Origin: a virus
Taxonomy: Duplodnaviria; Heunggongvirae; Uroviricota; Caudoviricetes
Reading direction: 5' to 3' (one strand)
IMG/VR virus record: IMGVR_UViG_2695420576_000005
Coordinates: 1 to 34,113 of that record
DNA: 34,113 bases
The notes beneath the pieces were generated by a model. That model had not been told where the DNA came from. It did not search any database and saw nothing but the letters and a program-made list of their open reading frames with translations. This document shows positions 3 through 28,684 of the stretch, in pieces; the first letter of the stretch is position 1, and each line of letters begins with the position of its first letter. Position numbers and translations under genes: made by a program.

Positions 3-863
3 GCATTATTACTGGAGCCACTGCAGTTCACCTTTATGAGTCACGCACTGCTGATTTCACTGGTAGTTTCCATACCCTGTGCGCTGCTGTCGGTCTTTCT
101 GGTCCTGAAAGGTTGGGCACTGATGGGTGACGCGATGAGTCATGCGGTTTTTCCTGGCATCGTGCTTGCCTGGATTCTGGGGTTACCTCTGGCTACAGGG
201 GCATTCGTCGCCGGAGTATTCTGCGCGGTGGCGACGGGATACCTGAAAGACAACAGCCGAATCAAGCAAGATACAGTGATGGGGATTGTTTTTTCTGGCA
301 TGTTTGCCGCAGGTCTGATCTTGTATATTGCAGTCAAACCAGACGTACATCTTGACCATATTCTTTTCGGCGACATGCTCGGGGTAACCATCGGCGATAT
401 AATCCAGACGGTGATTATTGCCGGGCTGGTTACACTTGTTATTAGCGTAAAATGGCGGGATTTTTTTCTGTTTTTGCTGTTCAGCTTTGATTATCAACAG
501 GCGCAGGTAAGCGGTTTGCATACGAGATGTCTGCATTATGGGCTGCTGTGCATGGTCTCTCTGACCATTGTGGCGACGCTGAAAGCGGTAGGTATCATTC
601 TCTCCATTTCTCTGCTCATTGCGCCTGGCGCCATTGCGGTACTCCTGACACAACGCTTTCATATTGCGCTCCTACTGGCGATTGGCATATCGGTAATAGT
701 GTCAATGACTGGTGTCTGGTTGTCCTTTTTTATCGACAGTGCACCAGCTCCGACGATTGTCGTCTTATTCGCGGTTGTGTTCATCATGACGTTCACCGTT
801 ACCAGCATCAACGCACGCACAAAGGGAAACACCCATACACAGGATTTGTCATCACCCAATTAG
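3..863 (+). CDS. sitD: Mn2+/Fe2+ ABC transporter permease, SitD/MntB (ABC-3) family; 5'-partial
   Basis: Track ORF 36..863; the same frame is open back to nt 3 (ALLLEPLQFTF precedes the first Met), so the start lies outside the window. Polytopic hydrophobic protein resembling SitD-type permeases by recall. Confidence 0.7.
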   Translation, partial: ALLLEPLQFTFMSHALLISLVVSIPCALLSVFLVLKGWALMGDAMSHAVFPGIVLAWILGLPLATGAFVAGVFCAVATGYLKDNSRIKQDTVMGIVFSGMFAAGLILYIAVKPDVHLDHILFGDMLGVTIGDIIQTVIIAGLVTLVISVKWRDFFLFLLFSFDYQQAQVSGLHTRCLHYGLLCMVSLTIVATLKAVGIILSISLLIAPGAIAVLLTQRFHIALLLAIGISVIVSMTGVWLSFFIDSAPAPTIVVLFAVVFIMTFTVTSINARTKGNTHTQDLSSPN

Positions 864-1214
864 CACAACATCCGAGGGCAGCATCGTCCGCTGGCCCACA
901 GAAGTCCGGAAAGTCATGGAAGGTCGTTGTTGGGAGGAGGTACAAATTCTCTCATGCAAAAAATACGTAAAATCGATAATAGCTGGAAATAATTCAATAC
1001 ATGCACTCTCGAAAGTGCATCAGCCAACCACAGAACGTTATCCCACACAACGTGCCTGCGGCATAATCCCAATGATTACTCCCTGACAGGGTTCGTAGGC
1101 CACTCAATATCAGGTGCAGTTGATGTATCAACACGGTTCAGCAGCATCCGATACTTTTTCCAGGCTTCCAGCAACGGGGTTTCTTCCTCCGTTGCATATA
1201 CAGCTCACCTTTTT

Positions 1215-2603: not shown

Positions 2604-2885
2604 TCACATCCAGCCACGAAGTTGATGCTCAACAGCAACCACGTATTCATCGAATAATGACGATATTTGCGAATCATTAATGATGCGCACGTTTACAAAA
2701 TATCCGTCTTCCTTAACACATACCGGTTCGCCATCTTCAGTCAGTTCTCCGGTTTCTTTGTACACGTTACCTATCACGTCGATAAGAATATCATCCTGCA
2801 TCGACTCGTCATCATAATAGCCAATACTCTCCATAAAGGCCGAAAAGTCGGCCCTGTCTTCAAATTTGAGTGTTAAATCTTTCAT
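2604..2885 (-). CDS. acidic 93-aa protein of unknown function, translationally coupled to stf
   Basis: Track ORF 2604..2885; its ATG (2883-2885) overlaps the stf stop (TAATG). No recognisable family; sits where Tfa would be in lambda. Confidence 0.5.
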   Translation of the reverse strand: MKDLTLKFEDRADFSAFMESIGYYDDESMQDDILIDVIGNVYKETGELTEDGEPVCVKEDGYFVNVRIINDSQISSLFDEYVVAVEHQLRGWM

Positions 2886-5284
2886 TAGATTGACTCCCCC
2901 ATTTGTGCCTCAGTTAATTCTTTATGCCAAATGCGTAAATTTTTCACATGACCGAACAGGTGTCTGTTGCCACTGGATGATTGTCCACCGATATTAATAT
3001 TACCGGCAGTATAACGTTGCAATGTATGCAGAGACGGGGAGCTGCCACCTAAAATTCCATCAACAACAACCTGCAACTGTTTATCTTCTGTAAACTTAAA
3101 GCCAGTAACAAATTTCCTTTTCTCTCTATTCCCATATGCTTTATATTCTGTTTTTGTTCCTTTGCCATTGGTGATAATTAGCCTTTTACCACGAGTGGTA
3201 AAACCAAAATACATATAACTTTCATCAGAAACTTCAGTCGTCGCCCCTGTAATTGAGATATTAAGCAAACGCGCAGAGCCTTCTAAATTAGGCATTTCAG
3301 AATCCCAATTAACATTAACTTCCATGAGAACACTAACTGGTGGAGTTGCCCAATTGAAAGGTATAGGTATGATTACCTGGTCACTTGCTCTCGTGGCACC
3401 GACCTCTGTTGTGATGATAAAAGATGACGCGTTTAGTCCCTTTTCGAATTGAGGGGTTGTTAACATTAATTTATCGCCAGACTTGATTGATCGTTGATGT
3501 GCTCCAAACTCAAAACGCCCATACATATTTTTTGCTTCTGGTGATTTGTAGGTAAACTCAACACGAATCCATCCATTAGACTCTCTGAATATGTTATAAG
3601 TTGCCGCCTCACCTCCAGAATAACTCAACATATCGCCAGTCTCGCAATCAATATATGCGCCAGCGGTCAGTGTGTTACTTGAGCCATCGTCGTTAACATA
3701 TGATATTCTTGGACGCAACGTGATAATACCATCCCCACTTACTTTTTTAACTCTGCAGGATAAAGTAACTGATTCATTTGCCGAAACTGAAATAACCCTG
3801 GTATATCCAGTAGAAATTAATGTCGCCCTTTCAGTTGTGGATGTTTCTTTAACGCCAAACAAACCATAACTGAAACCATACTCATCAACTCCCGTGGTAA
3901 TAGTTAAGTTAGCAGTGTCATAGTTCCACGATACTGGTGTATTCGTATAAGAAAAAGTATTCGTTCTCTGACCTTCAATGAGCAGACCATCTTTTTCAAA
4001 ACGTGGTTCATTTATCGCTGATTCAGCAAAACACCCAGACTTATCTATATACGTTGCAGTTGACGCCCTGGTAAATGAAACAACCTTTTCAGACGGCAAT
4101 GCAATAACATCGTCACCAACTGTGATGCTCTTATATCCAGGAGCAAACCCGGTAATCATATCCAGTGAATCGTTAAACGGTATCCACACCTCAGGTAACG
4201 GCTGTAAGACATATTTATACGGCTCCGCAGCCTGGCTTGCGTACTCTCTGGCTGCATCTTCGCTTGCTTTAGCTGCCGTCTGGCTTGCTGCCGATGCTTT
4301 CGCTGAGTTCGCAGCCGCTGTTTCGCTCGCCTTTGCGTTGGTTTCACTGGTTTTTGCTGCTTTTTGACTGTTAGCTGATGCAGTGGCAGAAGCAGCCGCC
4401 GCACTTGCAGAACCAGCTGCAGCACTCTCGCTTTCAGCTGCTGCAGCCTGACTACTTTTCGCCGCAGTTTCACTGGCTTTGGCATTCGTTTCGCTGGTCT
4501 TCGCTGCTGTCTGGCTGGACTTTGCGTTAGTTTCACTCGTCTTCGCAGCTTTCTGGCTGTTAGCCGCAGCAGTTGCTGATCCGGCTGCTGAAGTCGCAGA
4601 ACCGGCCGCCGCACTCTCGCTGTCAGCTGCTGCATCCTGACTGCTTTTCGCCGCAGTTTCACTGGCTTTGGCATTCGTTTCGCTGGTTTTCGCTGCCGTC
4701 TGGCTGGACTTCGCGTTGGTTTCGCTCGTCTTTGCGGCTGTCTCACTGTTTTTCGCGTTGGTTTCTGATTTTTTGGCTGCAGTCGCGGAGTTTGCCGATG
4801 CAGTCTGTGAGGCCGCTGCCGCCTGTGCGCTGTTAGCTGCGTTCGTTTCTGAGGTTTTCGCCGCGTTCTTCGATGATGCCGCTGCTGTTTCGGATTTCTT
4901 TGCCGCCGCTGCGCTCTGAGAGGCGGCTTCAGCGTTGCGTGCCGCTTCTTCCACCATTTCCTCAAAACGACGCAATGCCTCCGGCATGACATCATCTTCC
5001 GTCATGGCACCGAGAAAATCATTCAGCGTCCCCGGCTTAGAATCTTCATACACGGTGATGGTCCCGGCATGTGAAGGCGGAAAACCTTCAACCAGCAGGA
5101 TAACGCTGTACTGGCCATACTCAACATCCATGCTGTAACGCCCGGCTTCATCCGGATTTTCAGAGGCCACCGTGTTCACCAGTACCGTGGTGCTGTTACG
5201 CTTTGCCTTCAGTTGAATAGTGCAGTTCTGTATTGGTTTTCCCGCACCATCTTTCAGCACACCTGAGATTTTTACTGCTGCCAT
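2885..5284 (-). CDS. stf: side tail fibre protein Stf (lambda-like N-terminus, Ala/Ser/Thr repeat shaft, divergent C-terminal domain)
   Basis: Track ORF 2885..5290 (801 aa). MAAVKISGVLKDGAGKPIQNCTIQLKA... is near-identical to the lambda Stf N-terminus; lambda-equivalent ATG at 5282-5284 with GGAG RBS. The C-terminal ~450 aa are unrelated to lambda Stf. Confidence 0.85.
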   Translation of the reverse strand: MAAVKISGVLKDGAGKPIQNCTIQLKAKRNSTTVLVNTVASENPDEAGRYSMDVEYGQYSVILLVEGFPPSHAGTITVYEDSKPGTLNDFLGAMTEDDVMPEALRRFEEMVEEAARNAEAASQSAAAAKKSETAAASSKNAAKTSETNAANSAQAAAASQTASANSATAAKKSETNAKNSETAAKTSETNAKSSQTAAKTSETNAKASETAAKSSQDAAADSESAAAGSATSAAGSATAAANSQKAAKTSETNAKSSQTAAKTSETNAKASETAAKSSQAAAAESESAAAGSASAAAASATASANSQKAAKTSETNAKASETAAANSAKASAASQTAAKASEDAAREYASQAAEPYKYVLQPLPEVWIPFNDSLDMITGFAPGYKSITVGDDVIALPSEKVVSFTRASTATYIDKSGCFAESAINEPRFEKDGLLIEGQRTNTFSYTNTPVSWNYDTANLTITTGVDEYGFSYGLFGVKETSTTERATLISTGYTRVISVSANESVTLSCRVKKVSGDGIITLRPRISYVNDDGSSNTLTAGAYIDCETGDMLSYSGGEAATYNIFRESNGWIRVEFTYKSPEAKNMYGRFEFGAHQRSIKSGDKLMLTTPQFEKGLNASSFIITTEVGATRASDQVIIPIPFNWATPPVSVLMEVNVNWDSEMPNLEGSARLLNISITGATTEVSDESYMYFGFTTRGKRLIITNGKGTKTEYKAYGNREKRKFVTGFKFTEDKQLQVVVDGILGGSSPSLHTLQRYTAGNINIGGQSSSGNRHLFGHVKNLRIWHKELTEAQMGESI
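4380..4760. repeat. 189-bp (63-codon) tandem direct repeat inside stf, two near-identical copies with degenerate flanking copies
   Basis: ttttcgccgcagtttcactggctttggcattcgtttcgctgg occurs at 4456 and again at 4645 (period 189 bp); the protein shows repeated AKTSETNAKSSQTAAKTSETNAKASETAAKSSQ blocks. Confidence 0.75.
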
Positions 5285-5294
5285 ATCCACTCCA

Positions 5295-5348: not shown

Positions 5349-5948
5349 TCAGAACTTATAACCGACACCCACGATGAAACCGTCAGTGCGCCAGTCACCA
5401 CTGCCGGAGCCTTCATAAGCAATATCAATGGCCACGGATTCGGTCGGGTTAAACTGCACGCCAGCTCCCCACGCCAGAGACGTGTTGCTGTGGCGACCGT
5501 CATCACTTCCGGTCAGCACATCGTGCGTTTTCCCCTTGTTGTCAGTTACGCGGAGGTAATCCCCGGAAAAAGTCGAAACACGGCTGTAAGCCATACCCGC
5601 CATCGCATACGCGCTGAACCATTCATTCACGCGCACAGACGGCCCCGCCATCACGCTGAACCAGCGGTTACGCACGGAATCTTTATGCCAGCGGGTATCG
5701 CTGTAACGGGTCAGCTGACGATTCTTGTATCCTGCATAACTGAATGACGTCACCAGCCCCAGCGTGTCCGTAAATTCATAACGGTATTTCACGTTAATGC
5801 CCTTCAGGTCATCACTGCCTGGCATATCAGTATGGGTCTGAAGATACCCGGCGCTTAGTGTGGACTGATGCTCTGCTGCGCTCGCTGGCGTACCAGCGGC
5901 AACCAGCCAGACTACTGCGGACAGAATAACAGCACATAATTTACGCAT
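5349..5948 (-). CDS. lom: Lom/Ail/PagC-family outer membrane protein
   Basis: 199-aa ORF with signal peptide; C-terminus ...AYEGSGSGDWRTDGFIVGVGYKF matches lambda Lom; located directly after J as in lambda. Confidence 0.85.
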   Translation of the reverse strand: MRKLCAVILSAVVWLVAAGTPASAAEHQSTLSAGYLQTHTDMPGSDDLKGINVKYRYEFTDTLGLVTSFSYAGYKNRQLTRYSDTRWHKDSVRNRWFSVMAGPSVRVNEWFSAYAMAGMAYSRVSTFSGDYLRVTDNKGKTHDVLTGSDDGRHSNTSLAWGAGVQFNPTESVAIDIAYEGSGSGDWRTDGFIVGVGYKF

Positions 5949-6015
5949 AATTACCTCTCGCTTTTCTGCAATAAAAAAGGCGTCATTTCTGACGCCCGTA
6001 TTGGGGTTATAAAAT

Positions 6016-9000
6016 TCAGCTGATACTGATGCCTGCAGTGGCTTTCTTCATCACAACAACCAGCAAATCGCTGATACTTGCTGTGGGATACCAACCATTT
6101 ACCCACCATGCTGATACAGAAAACTCCAGTGTCATTACACCACTGCCTGCAGGCATATCAATAACACCCGTGTAAATCAGAGTATTATCCAGAGCCGTTC
6201 GGTTATAAATTTCAGCCCCGTTTTTCTTCACTATCAGGCGGCATGACGAATAAGTATCGCTATTCTCCCGCTCATGTCTGGCACCGCAGAAAGCCCACCG
6301 CTGGAATAACAATTTGCCGGTCAAACGACTGATCGTCATAAACCCTGACGGTAATAGTCCCTGATGGCCACCGCTCCGGTGCACGGGAGTCCCGGGGGAA
6401 AGCTTTGCCCACTGTTTTAACGAGATCGCCTTCAATCTGGTTCGCGGACAGTTTTCCCAGAACCCGACAGTTCTCGTTAATCGTGACATTATTGAGCGTC
6501 CCGGAGTTCGCATTCACGTTACCGCTGATATCGGCATTTTTCGCCGTCAGCCGCCCGTCCGGTGTCAGGGAAAATACCGGAGGATTGCCGCCACTGGTAA
6601 TGGTGGGAGCCGTCAGATACTTCAGGAACACTTCGTTCATGAATATCTGGTTGCCCTGCGCCACAAACATCGGCGTTTCATTCCCGTTTGCCGGGTCAAT
6701 AAACGCGATACGGTTAGCGGCAACCAGGAACTGGCTCAGTTTGCCTTCCTCCGTATCCTCCATACTAAGGCCAAGCCCCGCGACATAATGCCTGCCGTCT
6801 TCGGTCTGCTCAATTTTGACGCCCCACATGGCATTCCATTTATCGTTGGCGTCCTTCCACTCTTTCGAAAACTCCTCCAGTTTGCTGGCGTTATCCTCCG
6901 TCAGCTCGACTTTTTCCAGCAGCTCCTTGCCGAGATGGGATTCGGTTATCTGGCCTTTGAAAAAATCCAGGTAACCTTCCGCATCATCGCTCGGCTGACC
7001 AACAGCCTCCACGAATGCCGATTTGCCAACGGTGTTCACACTGCGGATATAAAAGTAATAATCATGGCCCGGTTTGATATTGATACTGGCAGCTATCCAG
7101 TACAGCGCCGTACCAAGATAGCGGGCTGTGGTCTCAACCTGCCTGATATCGGTAATCCGCTTTTCCGAGAACCAGAACTCAAACTGTACCGTCGGATCAT
7201 AAACCGCAAGATGCGGCGTGGCAGTTATCTGAAAATAGCCCGGCGTCAGCTCAATCCGCGACGGCGCTGCCGGTGCGGCAATCCGGAACGATACCGATGC
7301 CGGATCGCCCTGCTGTCCCCACGCATTTACCGCCCGGACCGTCAGCGTGTAACGCCCCAGCGCCAGTTGCCTGAAGCGGTATGTGGTTTCCGTCGTCCTG
7401 GCCGTGCTGACCAGCCGCTCACTGCCGTCATCCGCTGCCACGGTCAGGCGAAGCATAAAGCTCACCCCCTTCACCACCTTCGGCGTATCCCAGCGCGCCA
7501 GCACCTGATACTCCCCGCTGTCTGAGGTGACTTCGGCAGTCAGGTGCTGCACCGCAGGCGGCGTGACACCATTCACCGTGCCGCTCTGGTCGCCGTCAAA
7601 GTGCGCCCCGTTATCCACGATGGCCTCTTTTTCCGGCACATGCTGCACGGCGGTGATGGCATACGTGCCGTCGTCGTTCTCACGGATACTCACGCAGCGG
7701 AACAGGCGCTGGCGCAGCGTCGGCAGCTTCAGCCCCCATACGCTGTATTCAGCAACACCGTCAGGAACACGGCTCACTTTTACCTTCACGCCGTCGGTGA
7801 CGGACTGAACCTCCACGCTGACCGGATTGCCACTTCCGTCAACCAGACTTATCAGCGTGGTACCGGAGGATGGCAGCGTGATTTCACGGTCGAGCGTCAG
7901 CGTCCGGGTCTGGCTGTTCACCGCCAGCACGCGCAAGCCGATGCTGATACCCGCATAGTCATCATCACAGATTTCAATGACATCCCCCGGTACATGGCGA
8001 AGCCCTTCCGCACCCACGCTGAAGTCCACGGTCTGCGTTTCCAGCAGTTCCGTTTTAATCAGCCACAGCCCGGCGCGGTGCGCCTGCCCCCGGCTGGTAC
8101 AGCCAAAGGCATCCATCTTCGTGACGTTACGACCGTAACGGGCAATGGCCTGCGTATCTTCAACAAGCTCTGTCGCCGTCTCCCAGCCGTTGTTCGGGTC
8201 AATCCAGTTCACCTCAACGGCATTATGGCGGTCCTTCAGGGCGCTGAAGCTGTAGCGGAACGGCGCGCCATCATCCGGCATCACCACATTACTGCGGTTA
8301 TAGGTCCACACCTTATCTGATGGTCGGTCCTGCACGAACGTCAGCGTCTGCCCGTTCCATACCGGCATACAGCGCATCGCCGAGCAGAAATCACTGAGCA
8401 CATCCCACGCCTTGCGCTGTGTGGTCAGCCAGGCATTACAGGTGATGCGCGGCTCCGTGCCACCAAAGCCATCCGGCACCGACTGGTCGCAATTCTGGCC
8501 GATGACATACAGCGCCCATTTGTCCACATCCGCCGCACCGAGACGCTTCCCCATGCCGTAGCGCGGATGGGTCAGCATATCCCACAGACACCAGGCCATG
8601 TTGTTGCTGTATGCTGGCTTAAACGTTCCGTCCCAGATACCGCTGTATTGTCGCGTCTGCGGGTTATAGTTCGACGGCACCTGCAGAATGCGCCCGCGAA
8701 GATGATAATTACGACTCACCTGCTGGCTGCCGAACTGCTCCGAGGGTCCACCTGTACGCTGACCAGTGCCGTGTTCGGGTAGCACTGTTTCACATCGATG
8801 ATTTCGGTGTATGACGACCAGAGCGTTTTGTTCTGCAGCTGGTCTGTGGTGCTGTCCGGCGTCATCCTGCGCATCCGGATATTAAACGGGCGCGGCGGCA
8901 GGTTATCCACCACCACCGAGGCCAGATACTGCGAGGTGGTTTTGCCTTTAATGGTGATGTCTTTTTCCGTCACCCAGCCACCGTTACGCTGTATCTGAAC

Positions 9001-9414
9001 CAGCAGGCGGACTTCCGACGGATTCCGGTCCCCCTTTGAGGTGGTTTCCACCAGTGCCTGCACACCGAAGGTAAAGCGCAGACGGTCGATGTTTGCAGAC
9101 GTGATGGTCCGGGTAATCGGCGTGTCGTACTTCACTTCCGTACCCAGCACCGTCTCGGAGCCGGAGGATTCAAATCCCTCCGGCGGTGTCTGCTCCTGCT
9201 CACCTGCCCGGAACACCACCGTGACACCGGAGATATTGGTATTCCCCTCACTGTCCAGCACCGGCGTACTGTTCAGCAGCACACTTTTTAATCCGTCCAC
9301 CGGACCTTCAATCGGCCCTTCACTGATGGCGTCTATCACGCTCAGCATCTGGGATGATTTCAGGTTGTCCTTCGCTTCGCGCGGGGTATGCCCCTTACTG
9401 CTGCCTTTACCCAT
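6016..9414 (-). pseudogene. J: tail tip / host-specificity protein J, interrupted by two frameshifts
   Basis: Three collinear ORF pieces (8716..9414, 6272..8785, 6016..6513) each match successive parts of lambda J. The span is 3399 nt, the intact lambda J length. Frame changes at about 8744-8747 (C run) and 6290-6293 (T run). Confidence 0.85.
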
Positions 9415-11797: not shown

Positions 11798-14363
11798 CGT
11801 CCACCTCCGGAGAACAGACCACCATCACGCATCTGAGCCCGGTCACAACATCCATTGCCGCCTTACGGGCTACGTCATAAACAGCCTTCAGCGCCTGTGG
11901 CCCTATCTGACCGTTCGTGCCGTCGTTGTTAATCACCACATGGTTATTCTGCTCAAACGTCCCGGACGCCTGCGACCGACTGTCCGCCATGCTGCCCGGT
12001 GTACCGACATAACCGCCGGTGGCATAGCCGCGCATAAGCCGGTAAAGATTCCCCACGCCAATCCGGCTGGTTGCCTCCTTCGTGAAGACAAATTCACCAC
12101 GGTGAACAATCCCCGCTGGCTCATATTTGCCGCCGGTTCCCGTAAATCCTCCGGTCGCAAAATGGAATTTCGCCGCAGATGCCTGAATGGCTGTACCGCC
12201 TGACGCTGATGCACCGCCAATGACACTCCCGACACTCCCGACGATCCCCACCATTGCCTGCTTAAGCAGAATTTCTGTCATCATGGACAGCACGGAACGG
12301 GTGAAGCTGCGCCAGTTCTGTTCACTGCCGGTCAGCATCGCCGCCATATTCTGTGCAATACCATCAAAGGTCTGCGTGGCTGCACTTTTTACCTGCGACA
12401 TACTGTCCGTGGCGCTCTCTTCCCACTCACTCCAGCCGGACTTCAGGCCTGCCATCCAGTTCCCGCGAAGCTGGTCTTCAGCCGCCCAGGTCTTTTTCTG
12501 CTCTGACATGACGTTATTCAGCGCCAGCGGATTATCGCCATACTGTTCCTTCAGGCGCTGTTCCGTGGCGTCCCGCGCTGCCTGCCGGTCAGTCAGCCCC
12601 CGGTTTCAAGTCGCCTCAATGGCTGCCCGTTTTGCCCGTTGCTGCTGTGCGAATTTATCCGCCTGCTGCGCCAGCGCGTTCAGGTGCTCCTGATACGTGA
12701 CCTTATCGCCAAGTGCAGCCAGCTGGCGTTTGTACTCCAGCGTCTCATCTTTATGCGCCAGCAGGGATTTCTCCTGTGCGGACAGCTGGCGACGTTGCGC
12801 CGCCTCCTCCAGTACCGCGAACTGACTTTCCGCCTTCCACAAATCCCGGCGCTGCTGGCTGATTTTCTCATTCGCTCCGGCATGCTTCTCCAGTGTCCGG
12901 AGTTCTGCCTGAAGCGTCAGCAGGGCAGCATGAGCACTGTCTTCCTGACGATCGCCCGCAGACACTTTCACGCCGGACTGCTTCGGCTTTTTCAGCGTCG
13001 CTTCATAGTCCTTTTTCGCCGCCGCCATCAGCGTGTTGTAATCTGCCTGCAGGATTTTTCCGTCTTTCAGTGCCTTATTCAGTTCCTCCTGGCGGGCGGT
13101 ATATTTCTCCAGCGGTGTCTGCAGGCGTTCGTAAGCCTTCTGCGCCTCTTCGGTATATTTCAGCCGTGATGCCTCAGACGAGGCCCGATCTTTTGCTGCC
13201 ATCTCACTGGCCTTTTCAAGATCTGCCTGCAACGTGGCGGCTGAAAGCCCAAGTCGCGCATTCTCTCTCTTCTCCCATGCCCCCCGGAGATTGGCAAGAA
13301 ATGCTGACGTTTTACCGCGCCGGTGGCTTCGGCTCTGATACCACTGCCATTTTTTATCCGCTTCATCAAAAGCCTTTTCAGCTTTGGCGAGCATATCTGC
13401 AGAGGAGTCCGGGCGACCAATATCCAGCACCGCATCCCACATGGATTTGAATGCCTGTGCAGTCTTGTCTGCCCAGGTCTCCAGCGTACCCATGTTATCT
13501 TTCAGTTTACGGGTCTGGTCATCAAACCCTTTCGTTGCGGCCTCGTTCGCCGCCTGCAATGCCCCGGCCCCATCGCCGGAACGCTGCAACTGAGCAACAT
13601 ACGCAATCTGTTCCGCCGTCACGTTATGGAACTGGCGCGCCATCGCCGTCAACCCAGACGTCGGGTCAGTGGTCAGCTTCCCGAAGGCTTCAGCGACCTT
13701 GTCCACCTCCACGCCGGATGCAGAGGAGAAACGCGCCACACTCTGGCTGATTGCCTCAAACTGCTCACCACCACGCACACCGGCATTCACCAGCGCCGTC
13801 AGTGACTCGCTGGTCTGGTTAAACGTCAGCCCTGCCGCCTGCCCGGATCTGGACAGGGCCAGCATACGATCTGCCGTCAGTCCCGCCTGATTACCGGAAA
13901 GGACCAGCGTTTTATTGAAATTGGACAGGGTTGAGTCACCCTGATACCAGGCATACGCCAGCGCACCGGTCGCCACCGCCAGCGAAGTGATACCAACCAT
14001 CGGCAGGGTGATCGCACCGGCAAGCCCCCTGAACATGGGGATCATCCCGCCGAAGGAGTCCTTCACCTGACCACCCTGTTGCAGCAGGATGAGCCACGGA
14101 TTCTGCCCCCCTGCAAGCTGCGTGGCCACGTCGGTGAACTGCGCAGGCAGCATACGCATGGCAGCTTTATACTGCCCGACGGAAATCCCCGCTTTCTGTG
14201 CAGCCAGCGCCTGCCGGTTCATTGACTGTTCAACGACTGCCGCTGTTTTTTTCGCATCACTTTCCGTACCGGAAAAATGACGCCTGACTCTGGCCATCTG
14301 CTCGTCAAATCTGGCCGCATCCAGACTTAAATCAACGACCAGATCGCCTACCGGTTCAGCCAT
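11794..14363 (-). pseudogene. H: tail tape-measure protein H, interrupted by an in-frame TGA and a 3'-terminal frameshift
   Basis: ORFs 12606..14363 (585 aa) and 11718..12509 (263 aa) are in one frame separated by TGA at 12606-12608. The conserved C-terminus ...QMRDGGLFSGGGR* (stop 11794-11796, overlapping the M start as ATGA) lies in a different frame. Confidence 0.85.
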
Positions 14364-14790
14364 ACCGGACTCCTCCTGCGATCCCTTCTGATACTGTCAT
14401 CAGCATTACGTCATCCTCCATCATGTCCGCCACATACGGGGAAGCGGGGATAACTTCATTCCCGTCCGGGCCAAAACGAACGCCTCCGGCAAGCCCTGCC
14501 GCTTTCTGCATCAGCACATCATCTTCAGGCTCTTCGTCAGCCTCGCGCCGGTTAAGCAGACTGAAATCCAGCGGATGCATATCCGGATCGCTGAAAAACA
14601 GGCTGAGCACGGTGTACGTCAGCCCGGAAAAGTGCATATCCAGCAGAACATCATGAAAATAATGGGTACTGTAAAAGCGGTGCCAGTCGGCATACTCCGT
14701 GGATGACATCCCGGCAAGCATGGCGCGCCAGTCGGGTCGCCCCATCTCACGCGCCAGTTTCAGGGCAAAACTCAGCTCACCGACGAACAC
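14356..14790 (-). CDS. T: T-frame segment of the G-T tail assembly chaperone fusion
   Basis: 144-aa ORF VFVGELSFALKLAREMGRPDWRAMLAGMSSTEYADW... matches the lambda gpGT C-terminal portion; begins immediately after the slippery heptamer. Confidence 0.75.
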   Translation of the reverse strand: MFVGELSFALKLAREMGRPDWRAMLAGMSSTEYADWHRFYSTHYFHDVLLDMHFSGLTYTVLSLFFSDPDMHPLDFSLLNRREADEEPEDDVLMQKAAGLAGGVRFGPDGNEVIPASPYVADMMEDDVMLMTVSEGIAGGVRYG

Positions 14791-14796
14791 TTTCCC
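14790..14796 (-). promoter_or_regulatory. programmed -1 ribosomal frameshift slippery heptamer GGGAAAG (G/GT site)
   Basis: Plus-strand ctttccc at 14790-14796 is GGGAAAG on the minus strand, followed by the T-frame ORF exactly as in lambda G-T. Confidence 0.7.
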
Positions 14797-14823
14797 GCAG
14801 AAACAGGCTCTGCAGGCCCGGCG

Positions 14824-15198
14824 TCAGACGAGGGCCTGTTCAGGGGAATTATTCACCACAAACTCAGACATTCCGGACAGACGTAACACCACGTTTTCAG
14901 CCTGAGCAATTGCCTCCGTGGGCCAGGTGGTAAGCACTTCCTGCTCAATCTGCGTAATGGCTTCATTCATGGACGGCAGCTTTGTCTTCTGCGGATGGTT
15001 ATGCCACAGAGACATCGCCACCAGAAACGCCCCGCCTCTGATAAGATCCTCTACAGACACCTGCAGGTTGCCGCTGGATTCAGCCTTTTTTTCCTGCTCT
15101 TTCAACCAGGCAAGATGCTCAATACGCTGCAGGGCTGACAGTTCAGAAAGCGTGACGGTCACGCCGTTATGTTCAAATGATTCTGTTTTCAGGAACAT
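14824..15198 (-). CDS. G: tail assembly chaperone G, truncated: 3' end out of register with the slippery site
   Basis: 124-aa ORF MFLKTESFEHNGVTVTLSELSALQRIEHLA... matches lambda gpG (140 aa) but stops at TGA 14824-14826; the conserved tail SSDAGPAEPVSAGKCSS and GGGAAAG lie in the +1 frame. Confidence 0.75.
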   Translation of the reverse strand: MFLKTESFEHNGVTVTLSELSALQRIEHLAWLKEQEKKAESSGNLQVSVEDLIRGGAFLVAMSLWHNHPQKTKLPSMNEAITQIEQEVLTTWPTEAIAQAENVVLRLSGMSEFVVNNSPEQALV

Positions 15199-15213: not shown

Positions 15214-15954
15214 TTAACTGGCGGTGACGGTGATTTCTGCAACCGCAGCAAACTCACCATTACCGGATACAACCGGAATGTTGACCTTGCCTGCAGCAAC
15301 GCCGTTCACGGTGATGGTCATACCACTGACCGACACGGTGGCTTTTGTTTTATCCGCTGACACCGCACGGAAGCTCTTGTCGGTTGCGCCTTCCGGCTGG
15401 AATGCCACGGTCAGCGTCGTGCTCTGCCCTTTCACTACGGAAGCACTGGCTGGCGTTACCGTCATGCCGGTGGCCGCTGTTACCGTGCTGCGATCTTCCC
15501 CCATCGACGGGCGTCCCACATTGGTGACCTTCACCGTGCGGGTGATCACTTCCTTCGCCGTCACCGCTTTACCGATACTGCTGACCCAGCCACGGAACAC
15601 ATCGACCGTGCCGTTCGGGAAGCGGATTTTATAGGCACGGGTATCACCTTCATTAAACCACGCCAGCAGCGCCTGCTGCCCCTGCTCTCCGGGCATCCAC
15701 GCCAGCGTGAAGCTGGTATCTCCGGCTGATTTCTGCCCCTGCCCGGTCGCAGTCCAGTCCGCATCCTCATCATCGAGATAACTGTCGTCATAGGACTCAG
15801 CGGTCAGTTCGCCGGGCGTCAGGTCTTTAACTTTTGCCAGACGCGACCAGTCAACGTCTGAAAGCGGGTTCGCATAAGGGTCACCGTTCCCCTTATAAAC
15901 CCATAGTGTGGTCCCGGCCCCTTTCACCGGCATTGTAGGATTTGGTACAGGCAT
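15214..15954 (-). CDS. V: major tail protein V
   Basis: Track ORF 15214..15984; lambda-equivalent start [22 protein letters not shown]... at ATG 15952-15954 with GAGGA RBS; 246 aa ending ...AEITVTAS. Confidence 0.9.
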
Positions 15955-24935: not shown

Positions 24936-25386
24936 CCCGTTGGCCGTTCTGGTCTACTTCGTAATGGGATTTAATAGCTGAACGACAAAAGTCTTGCGAC
25001 CACAGTCACACAGACCTGAATACACGTCCTGTTTCTTCCACCCCCGCACAGGACTGGCGAGCATGAGGGCCCCCCCCCCGCGAACCATAAACGCGGTAAA
25101 AACCCGGTGTGCATCGTTTTTGATTATTCCCGCACACTCACGCAGAAGGAATTCCCCGTCGGGCTACGGTCATGGTTAATGCGGGAATACGGCGACGATA
25201 CAGCGCAGCTAAAAGGGTAATGGACAGATAGAGCGGTTTATTTCATTCCACAGGATTCTGAGTGCCTCCCTCCGCCAATAGGCTGAGCATCCACCTATAT
25301 AGTTTTAATTTTCATCAATCCATTTAACTATCGTTTAATTGTTGTCACATAGGATTCTGCCGTTTTTAACAATGCAGGATAATAAG

Positions 25387-25680
25387 ATGAAAAAAATGTT
25401 GTTTTCTGCCGCTCTGGCAATGCTTATTACAGGATGTGCTCAACAGACGTTTACTGTTGGAAACAAACCGACAGCAGTAACACCAAAGGAAACCATCACC
25501 CATCATTTCTTCGTTTCGGGAATTGGACAGGAGAAAACTGGTGATGCAGCCAAAATTTGTGGCGGCGCAGAAAATGTTGTTAAAACAGAAACCCAGCAAA
25601 CATTCGTAAATGGATTGCTCGGTTTTATTACTTTAGGCATTTATACTCCGCTGGAAGCGCGTGTCTATTGCTCACAATAA
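25387..25680 (+). CDS. bor: Bor lipoprotein (serum-resistance lipoprotein family)
   Basis: Track ORF 25339..25680; lambda-equivalent start MKKMLFSAALAMLITGCAQQTFTV... (ATG 25387-25389, AGGA RBS); lipobox LITGC; 97 aa; opposite strand to the lysis genes as in lambda. Confidence 0.9.
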   Translation: MKKMLFSAALAMLITGCAQQTFTVGNKPTAVTPKETITHHFFVSGIGQEKTGDAAKICGGAENVVKTETQQTFVNGLLGFITLGIYTPLEARVYCSQ

Positions 25681-27563: not shown

Positions 27564-28684
27564 ATGAAAAAATTAACAGTGGCAATTTCTGCTGTAGCTG
27601 CATCAGTACTGATGGCGATGTCTGCTCAGGCAGCTGAAATTTATAATAAAGACAGTAACAAGCTGGATCTATACGGGAAAGTTAATGCCAAGCACTACTT
27701 TTCCTCTAATGATGCAGATGATGGTGATACTACTTATGCCCGTCTTGGCTTCAAAGGTGAAACCCAAATCAACGATCAACTGACTGGTTTCGGTCAGTGG
27801 GAATATGAATTCAAAGGCAACCGTGCTGAATCTCAAGGTTCTTCCAAAGACAAAACCCGTCTTGCATTTGCAGGCCTGAAATTTGGTGATTACGGCTCAA
27901 TCGATTACGGCCGTAACTACGGTGTAGCATACGACATCGGTGCGTGGACTGACGTCCTGCCAGAATTCGGTGGTGATACCTGGACCCAAACAGATGTGTT
28001 CATGACTGGTCGCACTACTGGTGTTGCAACTTATCGTAACAACGACTTCTTTGGTCTGGTCGATGGCCTGAACTTTGCTGCTCAGTATCAGGGTAAAAAT
28101 GACCGCACTGACGTAACTGAAGCCAACGGTGATGGTTTCGGTTTCTCCACTACTTATGAGTATGAAGGATTCGGCGTGGGTGCAACCTATGCTAAATCAG
28201 ATCGCACTGACGGTCAGGTCGCCTATGGTAAGAGCAAATTCAATGCCTCCGGCAAAAATGCGGAAGTATGGGCTGCAGGCCTGAAATATGATGCGAACAA
28301 TATCTATCTGGCTACCACATATTCTGAAACTCAGAATATGACCGTTTTTGGTAATAACCATATTGCAAACAAAGCACAAAACTTTGAAGCAGTAGCACAA
28401 TATCAGTTTGACTTCGGTCTGCGACCATCTGTTGCTTACCTTCAGTCAAAAGGTAAAGACCTTGGTGTTCATGGTGACCGAGACTTAGTCAAGTATGTCG
28501 AGTCTTAGTCAAGTATGTCGATGTAGTCAAGTATGTCGATGTCGGTGCTACTTACTACTTTAATAAAAACATGTCCACTTTTGTTGATTACAAAATCAAC
28601 TTAATTGACGATAGTAAGTTTACCAAAACAGCTGGTATTGATACCGACGACATCGTCGCTGTAGGTCTGGTTTATCAGTTCTAA
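27564..28684 (+). pseudogene. nmpC: prophage-encoded OmpC/NmpC-family general porin, reading frame broken 60 codons from the 3' end
   Basis: ORF 27564..28508 (314 aa with signal peptide [23 protein letters not shown], then [16 protein letters not shown]...). Downstream in another frame is an intact porin C-terminus ...[54 protein letters not shown] (stop 28682-28684). Confidence 0.85.
28485..28539 (+). repeat. imperfect tandem triplication of a 16-20 nt unit (ttagtcaagtatgtcga) causing a 38-nt insertion in the porin gene
   Basis: Copies at 28485-28501, 28505-28521 and 28524-28539, separated by gtc and tg. Deleting 28486-28523 restores a continuous porin frame. Confidence 0.8.

What the first reader, a model, noticed from the sequence alone, without database searches (positions are those of the whole stretch)
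14824..14840. G is out of register with its own GGGAAAG frameshift site
The 124-aa G ORF stops at TGA 14824-14826, 28 nt before the slippery heptamer (14790-14796). The conserved G C-terminus (SSDAGPAEPVSAGKCSS) and the heptamer are in the +1 frame, and the G-to-T region is 843 nt against 839 in lambda. One extra base around the C/G run at 14832-14836 explains this. As written, ribosomes terminate before reaching the slip site, so neither full-length G nor G-T can be made normally. The G body and the T ORF are now in the same frame separated only by that TGA, so stop-codon readthrough would yield a G-T-like fusion directly.
Basis: partly seen in the sequence, partly recalled or inferred. Interest (0 to 1): 0.55.

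Follow-up and report, generated by a model that had tools for sequence, protein, structure and literature searches.

The report
Likely sequencing error in prophage G/T
The lambda-type tail-chaperone gene G really is knocked out of frame with its frameshift site in this deposited sequence. The lesion is unique to one error-laden draft assembly, so it is almost certainly a sequence artefact and not new biology.

Summary
G (15198..14824, minus strand) ends after 124 codons at a TGA. The GGGAAAG slip site (14796..14790) and the conserved G C-terminus lie in the +1 frame. The G body is now in frame with T across that single TGA.

The cause is not one extra base. Plus-strand TCT in every relative is replaced by GACGAGG at 14827-14833, a net gain of 4 nt.

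This lesion occurs nowhere else:
- None of 5,426 complete E. coli genomes or 109 phage records carries it.
- It has no match in IMG/VR, the JGI metagenomes or the GTDB representative genomes.
- The 124-aa product is on record on one contig only, AOQH01000090.1 of draft assembly GCA_000397345.1.

That contig carries 14 private small insertions and no deletions in 42.6 kb. They break J, H, a porin gene and the single-copy chromosomal gene sitA. Its closest relatives, from three continents, differ from each other by only 2-3 substitutions.

At that rate a whole genome would carry well over 1,000 frameshifts, so a faulty consensus is the best explanation (about 0.8). A real private mutation is possible (about 0.15). 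A selected stop-codon readthrough route to G-T has no support (about 0.02).

The underlying G/GT cassette is the ordinary, well-known lambda one.

The parts
15214..15954 (-). Major tail protein V gene, immediately upstream of G
   Evidence: Gene called on the source contig with Pfam Phage_TTP_12 and Big_2 (L006 2245-2985 mapped to the window). Annotated as a phage tail protein in relatives.
14824..15198 (-). G body ORF: 124 codons plus TGA. Identical to the relatives' 140-aa G through ...NNSPEQA, then LV*
   Evidence: Pfam PF06894 Phage_TAC_2, E = 1e-51, covering profile positions 1-121 of 126.
14827..14833 (.). The lesion. Plus-strand GACGAGG stands where all relatives have TCT (net +4 nt). 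This puts a pre-existing out-of-frame TCA/TGA into the G frame
   Evidence: Alignments. Absent from the 5 closest relatives, from 5,426 E. coli genomes, and from the viral, metagenome and GTDB collections.
14824..14826 (-). In-frame TGA, followed by C, that ends the G body
14772..14825 (-). Orphaned conserved G C-terminus DAGPAEPVSAGKCSSVS* in the +1 frame relative to the G body
   Evidence: Identical to the C-terminus of the relatives' G.
14790..14796 (-). Slippery heptamer G GGA AAG of the lambda G/GT -1 frameshift. It is in phase with the orphaned C-terminus, not with the G body
   Evidence: The heptamer and its ~4% shift in lambda are described in PMC3296357.
14356..14790 (-). T ORF of 144 codons, now in the same frame as the G body
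   Evidence: Pfam PF06223 Phage_tail_T, E = 2e-14. The exact 144-aa product is on record on 895 contigs.
12606..14363 (-). N-terminal 585-codon fragment of the tape measure gene H. It is cut short by another private lesion at 12607-12610
   Evidence: H is 854 aa in relatives.

Best explanation
The locus is the ordinary lambda-type tail assembly chaperone cassette. G and G-T are made from overlapping ORFs by -1 ribosomal frameshifting at G GGA AAG, between the tail tube gene V and the tape measure gene H. The out-of-register state is most likely an error in the consensus of one draft assembly (GCA_000397345.1, contig AOQH01000090.1). A 7-nt string stands where the real genome very probably has 3 nt. 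The true sequence is expected to read ...GAACAGGCAGATGACGCC..., giving the 140-aa G and normal G-T found in all close relatives.

Shown here: the lesion is unique, and the same contig is littered with private small insertions, including in single-copy chromosomal genes.

Inferred: these are artefacts and not mutations.
For: 1. Uniqueness.
- All 109 phage records and all listed E. coli genome hits have 872 nt where the window has 876.
- The best match of a 101-nt probe across the lesion, in 5,426 complete genomes, is 93.1%.
- The lesion, and also a hypothetical in-frame precursor one base shorter, has 0 matches in IMG/VR, the JGI metagenomes and the GTDB representative genomes.
- The exact 124-aa product is on record on one contig only.

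2. The junction does not vary in length in nature.
- In 118 IMG/VR loci that share the 38-nt slip-site block, the upstream sequence always has the form CAG-[G/A]CAGA[G/T]-GACGCC.
- The distance from the G start to that block is 369 nt in 105 of 109 loci, against 373 nt in the window.

3. The contig has an anomalous private branch.
- The window differs from each of its four closest relatives by 30-46 mismatched bases and 11-12 gap openings.
- Three of those relatives (USA, China, Australia) differ from each other by 2-3 substitutions and 0-1 indels over 34 kb. The fourth, FDAARGOS_1259, differs from them by 16-17.

4. The same pattern extends into single-copy chromosome.
- The 8.45 kb left of the window on the same contig has 5 more private small insertions and no deletions.
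- One of them is a 2-nt frameshift that truncates sitA. Relatives differ there by 2-4 substitutions and no indels.

5. Insertion bias and implied load.
- In total there are 14 net insertions and 0 net deletions in 42.6 kb, and 10 of them are not multiples of 3.
- The ratio of indel events to substitution events is about 0.67. A real divergent relative, L011, shows 8 gaps to 239 mismatches.
- Scaled to a 5-Mb genome, this rate means roughly 1,600 indels and more than 1,000 frameshifts, which is not credible for a living isolate (inference).

6. Two private lesions, at 13180-13181 in H and at 14827-14833 in G, create the same 10-mer TCAGACGAGG. It occurs only at those two places, against 0.03 expected. 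That points to a systematic process and not to independent mutations.
Against: - No reads are available, so the error is inferred and not seen.
- The lesions are mostly not simple homopolymer miscalls, and I could not name the sequencing platform or the assembler step that produces such replacements.
- No paper or record describing the assembly was found.
- Prophage genes do decay in nature.
- Only one contig of the assembly could be examined.
Confidence: 0.8

Rival explanations
1. The lesion is a real mutation private to this isolate. A small insertion-substitution inactivated the G/GT chaperone of a prophage that is decaying in this lineage, along with frameshifts in J and H. The prophage can no longer build tails.
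For: - The lesion is in a public record and has a plausible consequence.
- J (+1 at 6294, +2 at 8744-8745) and H (12607-12610, 11835-11836) are also broken, as expected if tail genes were no longer under selection.
- Another relative, A1.S1.65, has annotated pseudogenes in J and T, so decay of this prophage does occur.
Against: - The same class of private insertions hits sitA, sitD and intergenic chromosome at the same density.
- There are 14 insertions and 0 deletions, although bacterial mutation is biased towards deletions (established knowledge).
- The three closest relatives differ from each other by only 2-3 substitutions, so there has been little time for about 35 private events.
- Two of the lesions create the same 10-mer.
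Confidence: 0.15
2. The arrangement is functional. The -1 frameshift has been replaced by readthrough of a leaky UGA-C stop, so a truncated 124-aa G is the major product and a 280-aa G-T-like fusion is made at low level.
For: - The G body and T are in one frame with only the TGA between them.
- The stop is UGA followed by C, a context documented as inefficient for termination in bacteria (PMC5289835).
- The truncated G keeps 121 of 126 positions of the Pfam G domain.
- Lambda needs much G and little G-T (PMC3296357), which a leaky stop could mimic.
Against: - There is no conservation at all. The arrangement exists in one contig only.
- The intact slippery heptamer and the G C-terminus persist unchanged in the now useless frame, as expected of a very recent event or an error and not of an adapted system.
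- No stimulatory RNA structure is predicted (z = -0.27).
- UGA readthrough products seen in K-12 were undetectable with the fully active RF2 of non-K-12 strains (PMC5373646). This host is a clinical-type E. coli by its relatives.
- The fusion would carry an out-of-frame, cysteine-rich 11-residue linker.
- J and H are broken as well, so a tail could not be built anyway.
Confidence: 0.02
3. The lesion is a misassembly that mixes reads from several similar lambdoid prophages in the same genome. This is a special case of the artefact explanation.
For: E. coli genomes carry a median of 2 and up to 8 copies of this G/T region. Most of the private lesions lie in the tail module that such prophages share.
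Against: - The lesion sequence matches no G allele in 5,426 genomes or in the 118 IMG/VR loci. A mix of paralogues should give known alleles.
- Single-copy sitA and its neighbours show the same lesions.
Confidence: 0.03

Closest known systems
Bacteriophage lambda G / G-T tail assembly chaperone with programmed -1 frameshift at G GGA AAG (Levin, Hendrix and Casjens 1993, as cited in PMC3296357)
   Same: - The gene order V-G-T-H is the same.
- The DNA is 92.7% identical to lambda over G-T.
- The Pfam families PF06894 and PF06223 both match.
- The heptamer and the downstream T frame are identical.
   Different: In the deposited sequence a net 4-nt insertion 31 nt upstream of the heptamer takes the G body out of phase with it. 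The cassette cannot work as written. All close relatives have the canonical arrangement.
The same prophage in E. coli GN02350, UPEC132, N50 and YP3 (a complete lambdoid prophage next to sitABCD)
   Same: They are 99.7-99.9% identical over the whole 34-kb window with the same gene content. The T ORF is identical.
   Different: The relatives have an intact 140-aa G (WP_000479180.1), a 854-aa H and a full-length J. None of the window's private insertions is present in them.
Leaky UGA-C termination signals in E. coli (the prfB recoding site; readthrough extensions in K-12)
   Same: The stop is UGA followed by C, with an in-frame downstream ORF (PMC5289835).
   Different: There is no conservation, no shift-prone P-site codon (GUC) and no predicted structure. 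This is a resemblance of context only.

Membership tests
Lambda-type G/GT tail assembly chaperone frameshift cassette | Two consecutive ORFs lying between the major tail gene and the tape measure gene | tested here: met
   The order V (15954..15214), G (15198..14824), T (14790..14356), H (14363..) holds on the minus strand.
Lambda-type G/GT tail assembly chaperone frameshift cassette | Homology of the two ORFs to lambda G and T | tested here: met
   PF06894 matches at E = 1e-51 and PF06223 at E = 2e-14. The DNA is 92.7% identical to lambda.
Lambda-type G/GT tail assembly chaperone frameshift cassette | A slippery heptamer X XXY YYZ read in the zero frame of the upstream ORF near its end, with the downstream ORF in the -1 frame | tested here: not met
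   The heptamer is present. However, the G body ends 27 nt before it and lies in the T frame. Only the orphaned 17-codon C-terminus is in phase with the heptamer. The feature is met in every relative.
Lambda-type G/GT tail assembly chaperone frameshift cassette | Production of both G and G-T at a high G:G-T ratio | not testable with these tools
   This needs protein analysis.
Programmed stop-codon readthrough | The stop codon and the in-frame downstream ORF are conserved among relatives | tested here: not met
   The arrangement is found in one contig only.
Programmed stop-codon readthrough | A leaky stop context or a stimulatory downstream structure | tested here: inconclusive
   The UGA-C context is weak according to the literature. 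No structure beyond that of shuffled sequence is predicted (z = -0.27).
Sequencing or assembly artefact | The difference is private to a single assembly and absent from near-identical genomes | tested here: met
Sequencing or assembly artefact | The same kind of lesion occurs at similar density in conserved single-copy genes of the same assembly | tested here: met
   There are 5 private insertions in 8.45 kb of chromosome, one of them a sitA frameshift, plus a 9-nt insertion in sitD.
Sequencing or assembly artefact | The reads disagree with the consensus at the site | not testable with these tools
   No reads were accessible, and no paper on the assembly was found.

The most novel reading that the evidence does not exclude
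The lesion is real, and this prophage makes its G-T-like chaperone by readthrough of a leaky UGA-C stop instead of by -1 frameshifting. That would be a natural swap of one recoding mechanism for another in the most conserved frameshift cassette of tailed phages.
Probability: 0.02. Interest if true: 0.6.

Novelty: not a real feature. Interest (0 to 1): 0.06.

Why it matters
If the lesion were real and functional, it would show that the strongly conserved G/GT frameshift of long-tailed phages can be replaced by stop-codon readthrough. That would interest people who study recoding and tail assembly.

As it stands, the value is practical. The contig, and probably the whole of draft assembly GCA_000397345.1, carries about one spurious small insertion every 3 kb. 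Apparent pseudogenes, truncated proteins and "recoding" candidates drawn from it should not be trusted without reads.

Tried and rejected
- **One-base homopolymer error.** Rejected as a description: the alignment shows a 3-to-7 nt replacement. No 141-codon in-frame allele exists in any collection searched.
- **Rescue by +1 frameshifting before the TGA.** Rejected: the +1 frame is open only from ATA ATT CCC onwards. None of the zero-frame P-site codons there (AAU, UCC, CCU, GAA, CAG, GCC, CUC, GUC) can re-pair in +1. This is my reading plus established rules.
- **Template-switch (quasi-palindrome) mutation.** The lesion extends an inverted repeat from CAGGC...GCCTG to CAGGCCC...GGGCCTG. However, the inserted bases are not an exact complement of the partner arm, and the RNA fold is no better than shuffled sequence. 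This is not supported.
- **Colour-space conversion errors.** Some dinucleotide changes fit a single base mapping (CC to AA, TC to GA). Others do not (TG to CC, CACT to AAAA). Rejected.
- **Untrimmed 454/Ion key plus MID1.** From memory, this reads TCAGACGAGT..., which matches 9 of 10 bases of the shared 10-mer TCAGACGAGG. It is an untested lead only.
- **Defective DLP12-like remnant.** Rejected: in relatives the prophage continues with P, O-like, cro/cI-like, gam/bet/exo, xis and int genes.
- **Look-up of the variant SitD to reach the flank.** I reached the flank through the private 347-aa fibre protein instead.
- **Paper search for the accession.** Nothing was found.
- **Positive control with the relatives' allele.** I replaced it with a pattern taken from the window.
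- **The 801-aa fibre ORF at 2885..5290.** It looked more intact than the relatives' annotation, but the same ORF exists in the relative. This was an annotation quirk.

Full report
**The observation**

The genes lie on the minus strand. The G ORF runs from ATG 15198 to TGA 14826-14824 and is 124 codons long. The heptamer GGGAAAG is at 14796-14790, and the T ORF spans 14790-14356.

A single-frame translation from the G start reads G(124)-stop-RRACRACFCGK-VFVGELSF... through to the end of T. The G body and T therefore share a frame, with only that TGA between them.

The +1 frame reads NRPSSDAGPAEPVSAGKCSSVS*. This is the conserved G C-terminus, with the heptamer in its working phase G GGA AAG. 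G start to T stop is 843 nt, against 839 nt in lambda.

Pfam confirms the identities. G matches PF06894 (E = 1e-51, profile positions 1-121 of 126) and T matches PF06223.

**What the lesion is**

I aligned the window with lambda, three closer phages and the nearest E. coli prophages. The difference is confined to plus-strand 14827-14833, where the window has GACGAGG and every relative has TCT. On the coding strand, GAACAGGC-AGA-TGACGCC becomes GAACAGGC-CCTCGTC-TGACGCC.

The net gain is 4 nt, which shifts the frame by one and brings a pre-existing out-of-frame TGA into the G frame. Relatives read ...NNSPEQADDAGPAEPVSAGKCSSVS* and are 140 aa long. So this is not a one-base slip in a C/G run. Deleting one base would give a 141-codon G that no known phage has.

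**How common it is**

- All 109 phage records and all listed E. coli hits have 872 nt where the 876-nt query lies.
- A 101-nt probe across the lesion finds nothing better than 93.1% identity in 5,426 complete E. coli genomes.
- An exact-pattern scan that allowed either the lesion or a version one base shorter found nothing in IMG/VR, the JGI metagenomes or the GTDB representative genomes.
- As a positive control, the 38-nt block just downstream (GACGCC...GGGAAAGTG) hit at least 119 IMG/VR contigs. In all 118 usable loci the upstream junction has the form CAG-[G/A]CAGA[G/T] with no length variation. G start to block is 369 nt in 105 of 109 loci, against 373 nt in the window.
- The exact 124-aa product is on record on a single contig, AOQH01000090.1 of draft assembly GCA_000397345.1. 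That contig is the source of the window.
- By contrast, the window's exact T product is on 895 contigs.

**The company the lesion keeps**

The window is a lambdoid prophage next to sitABCD. It is 99.7-99.9% identical to the same prophage in complete genomes from the USA, China and Australia. Those three differ from each other by 2-3 substitutions and 0-1 indels over 34 kb.

The window differs from each of them by about 30 mismatched bases and 11-12 gap openings. None of the window's variants is present in five relatives.

The private indels are all net insertions:

| Position | Net change | Where |
|---|---|---|
| 462-470 | +9 | sitD |
| 2012-2015 | +3 | tail fibre gene |
| 6294 | +1 | J |
| 8744-8745 | +2 | J |
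| 9434 | +1 | intergenic |
| 11835-11836 | +2 | H |
| 12607-12610 | +3, with a stop | H |
| 14827-14833 | +4 | G |
| near 28502-28524 | +38 | imperfect tandem repeat in the porin gene |

As a result J is split into three ORFs, H into two, and the porin gene is truncated.

**The deciding test**

I used a private protein of the window to fetch the same contig further left. I then compared 8.45 kb of single-copy chromosome (ymgC to sitC) with three complete genomes.

The draft again carries 5 private small insertions (+1, +1, +2, +3, +2), no deletions and several odd substitutions. The relatives differ among themselves by 2-4 substitutions and no indels. One of these insertions frameshifts and truncates sitA.

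The lesion type is therefore not specific to the prophage. In total there are 14 net insertions and no net deletions in 42.6 kb, and 10 of them disrupt the reading frame. The ratio of indel events to substitution events is about 0.67. A truly divergent relative shows 8 gaps to 239 mismatches.

Scaled to 5 Mb, this rate means some 1,600 indels and more than 1,000 broken genes, which is not credible for a cultured isolate (inference).

In addition, the G lesion and a private dinucleotide change in H create the same 10-mer, TCAGACGAGG. It occurs only at those two sites, against 0.03 expected by chance. That fits a systematic artefact better than two independent mutations.

**Mechanism**

The underlying element is the standard lambda G/GT cassette. 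In lambda, about 4% of ribosomes slip -1 at G GGA AAG and continue into T. Both G and G-T are needed for tail assembly, at a high G:G-T ratio (PMC3296357, citing Levin et al. 1993). In all relatives this arrangement is intact.

My best explanation (about 0.8) is that the real genome of this isolate has it too, and that 14827-14833 is a consensus error.

If the lesion were real (about 0.15), it would be a null mutation of G/GT in a prophage whose J and H are also dead.

The readthrough idea (about 0.02) rests on three points. G and T are in one frame, UGA-C is a documented weak stop (PMC5289835), and most of the G domain is kept. Several points count against it:

- The arrangement is not conserved at all.
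- The old slip site and the G C-terminus are untouched in a frame that is now useless.
- No structure is predicted (z = -0.27).
- UGA readthrough products seen in K-12 were undetectable with the fully active RF2 of non-K-12 strains (PMC5373646).
- J and H are broken, which would prevent tail assembly anyway.

**Verdict**

The feature is most likely not real. The cassette underneath is already known, so interest is low. What could not be done here is to look at reads, and that is the decisive step.

Noticed in passing
window 6294 and 8744-8745: Private +1 and +2 insertions split the tail tip gene J into three ORFs (9414..8716, 8785..6272, 6513..6016). J is a single 1,131-aa gene in relatives.
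   Followed up: partly
window 12607-12610 and 11835-11836: A private replacement (CAAG for T) and a +2 insertion cut the tape measure gene H into fragments of 585 and 263 codons. H is 854 aa in relatives.
   Followed up: partly
window 28480-28540: An imperfect tandem repeat of a ~19-nt unit (TAGTCAAGTATGTCGA...) adds 38 nt. It truncates the prophage porin gene (nmpC/ompC-like; ORF 27564..28508, 314 aa against 360 aa in relatives).
   Followed up: partly
window 462-470; L012 (same contig, 1,757 and 1,916 nt left of the window start): Chromosomal sit genes carry the same kind of private insertions. sitD has +9 nt (adding FLF). sitA has +3 nt and a +2 nt frameshift that replaces its last 17 residues.
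   Followed up: yes
window 13174-13183 and 14824-14833: Two private lesions create the same 10-mer TCAGACGAGG, which occurs nowhere else in the window (0.03 expected). From memory it matches 9 of 10 bases of the 454/Ion key TCAG plus MID1 ACGAG.... This is an untested lead to the source of the errors.
   Followed up: partly
window 4622, 21512, 25274, 25541, 26173 and left flank 4954: Six of the private single-base differences are T in relatives and G in the draft, all on the same strand. None is the complementary A to C. This is an odd, strand-biased spectrum.
   Followed up: no
window 1030-1055: Six private substitutions fall within 26 nt at the prophage-chromosome boundary, in a tail fibre assembly pseudogene. 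This could be a small recombination patch or another error cluster.
   Followed up: no
window 25339-25680, 5349-5948 and 27564-28508: The prophage carries cargo genes annotated in relatives as iss (serum survival, Bor-like), an Ail/Lom family outer membrane protein and a porin. It sits directly beside sitABCD. In relatives it is a complete lambdoid prophage with int, xis, exo/bet/gam, a cI-like repressor and O/P-like replication genes.
   Followed up: partly
L011 (E. coli A1.S1.65), locus 14335-14769 and 6005-9399: In this more distant relative, the RefSeq annotation marks T as a pseudogene with an internal stop and J as frameshifted. Real or apparent decay of this prophage's tail genes is therefore on record in at least one complete genome.
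   Followed up: no
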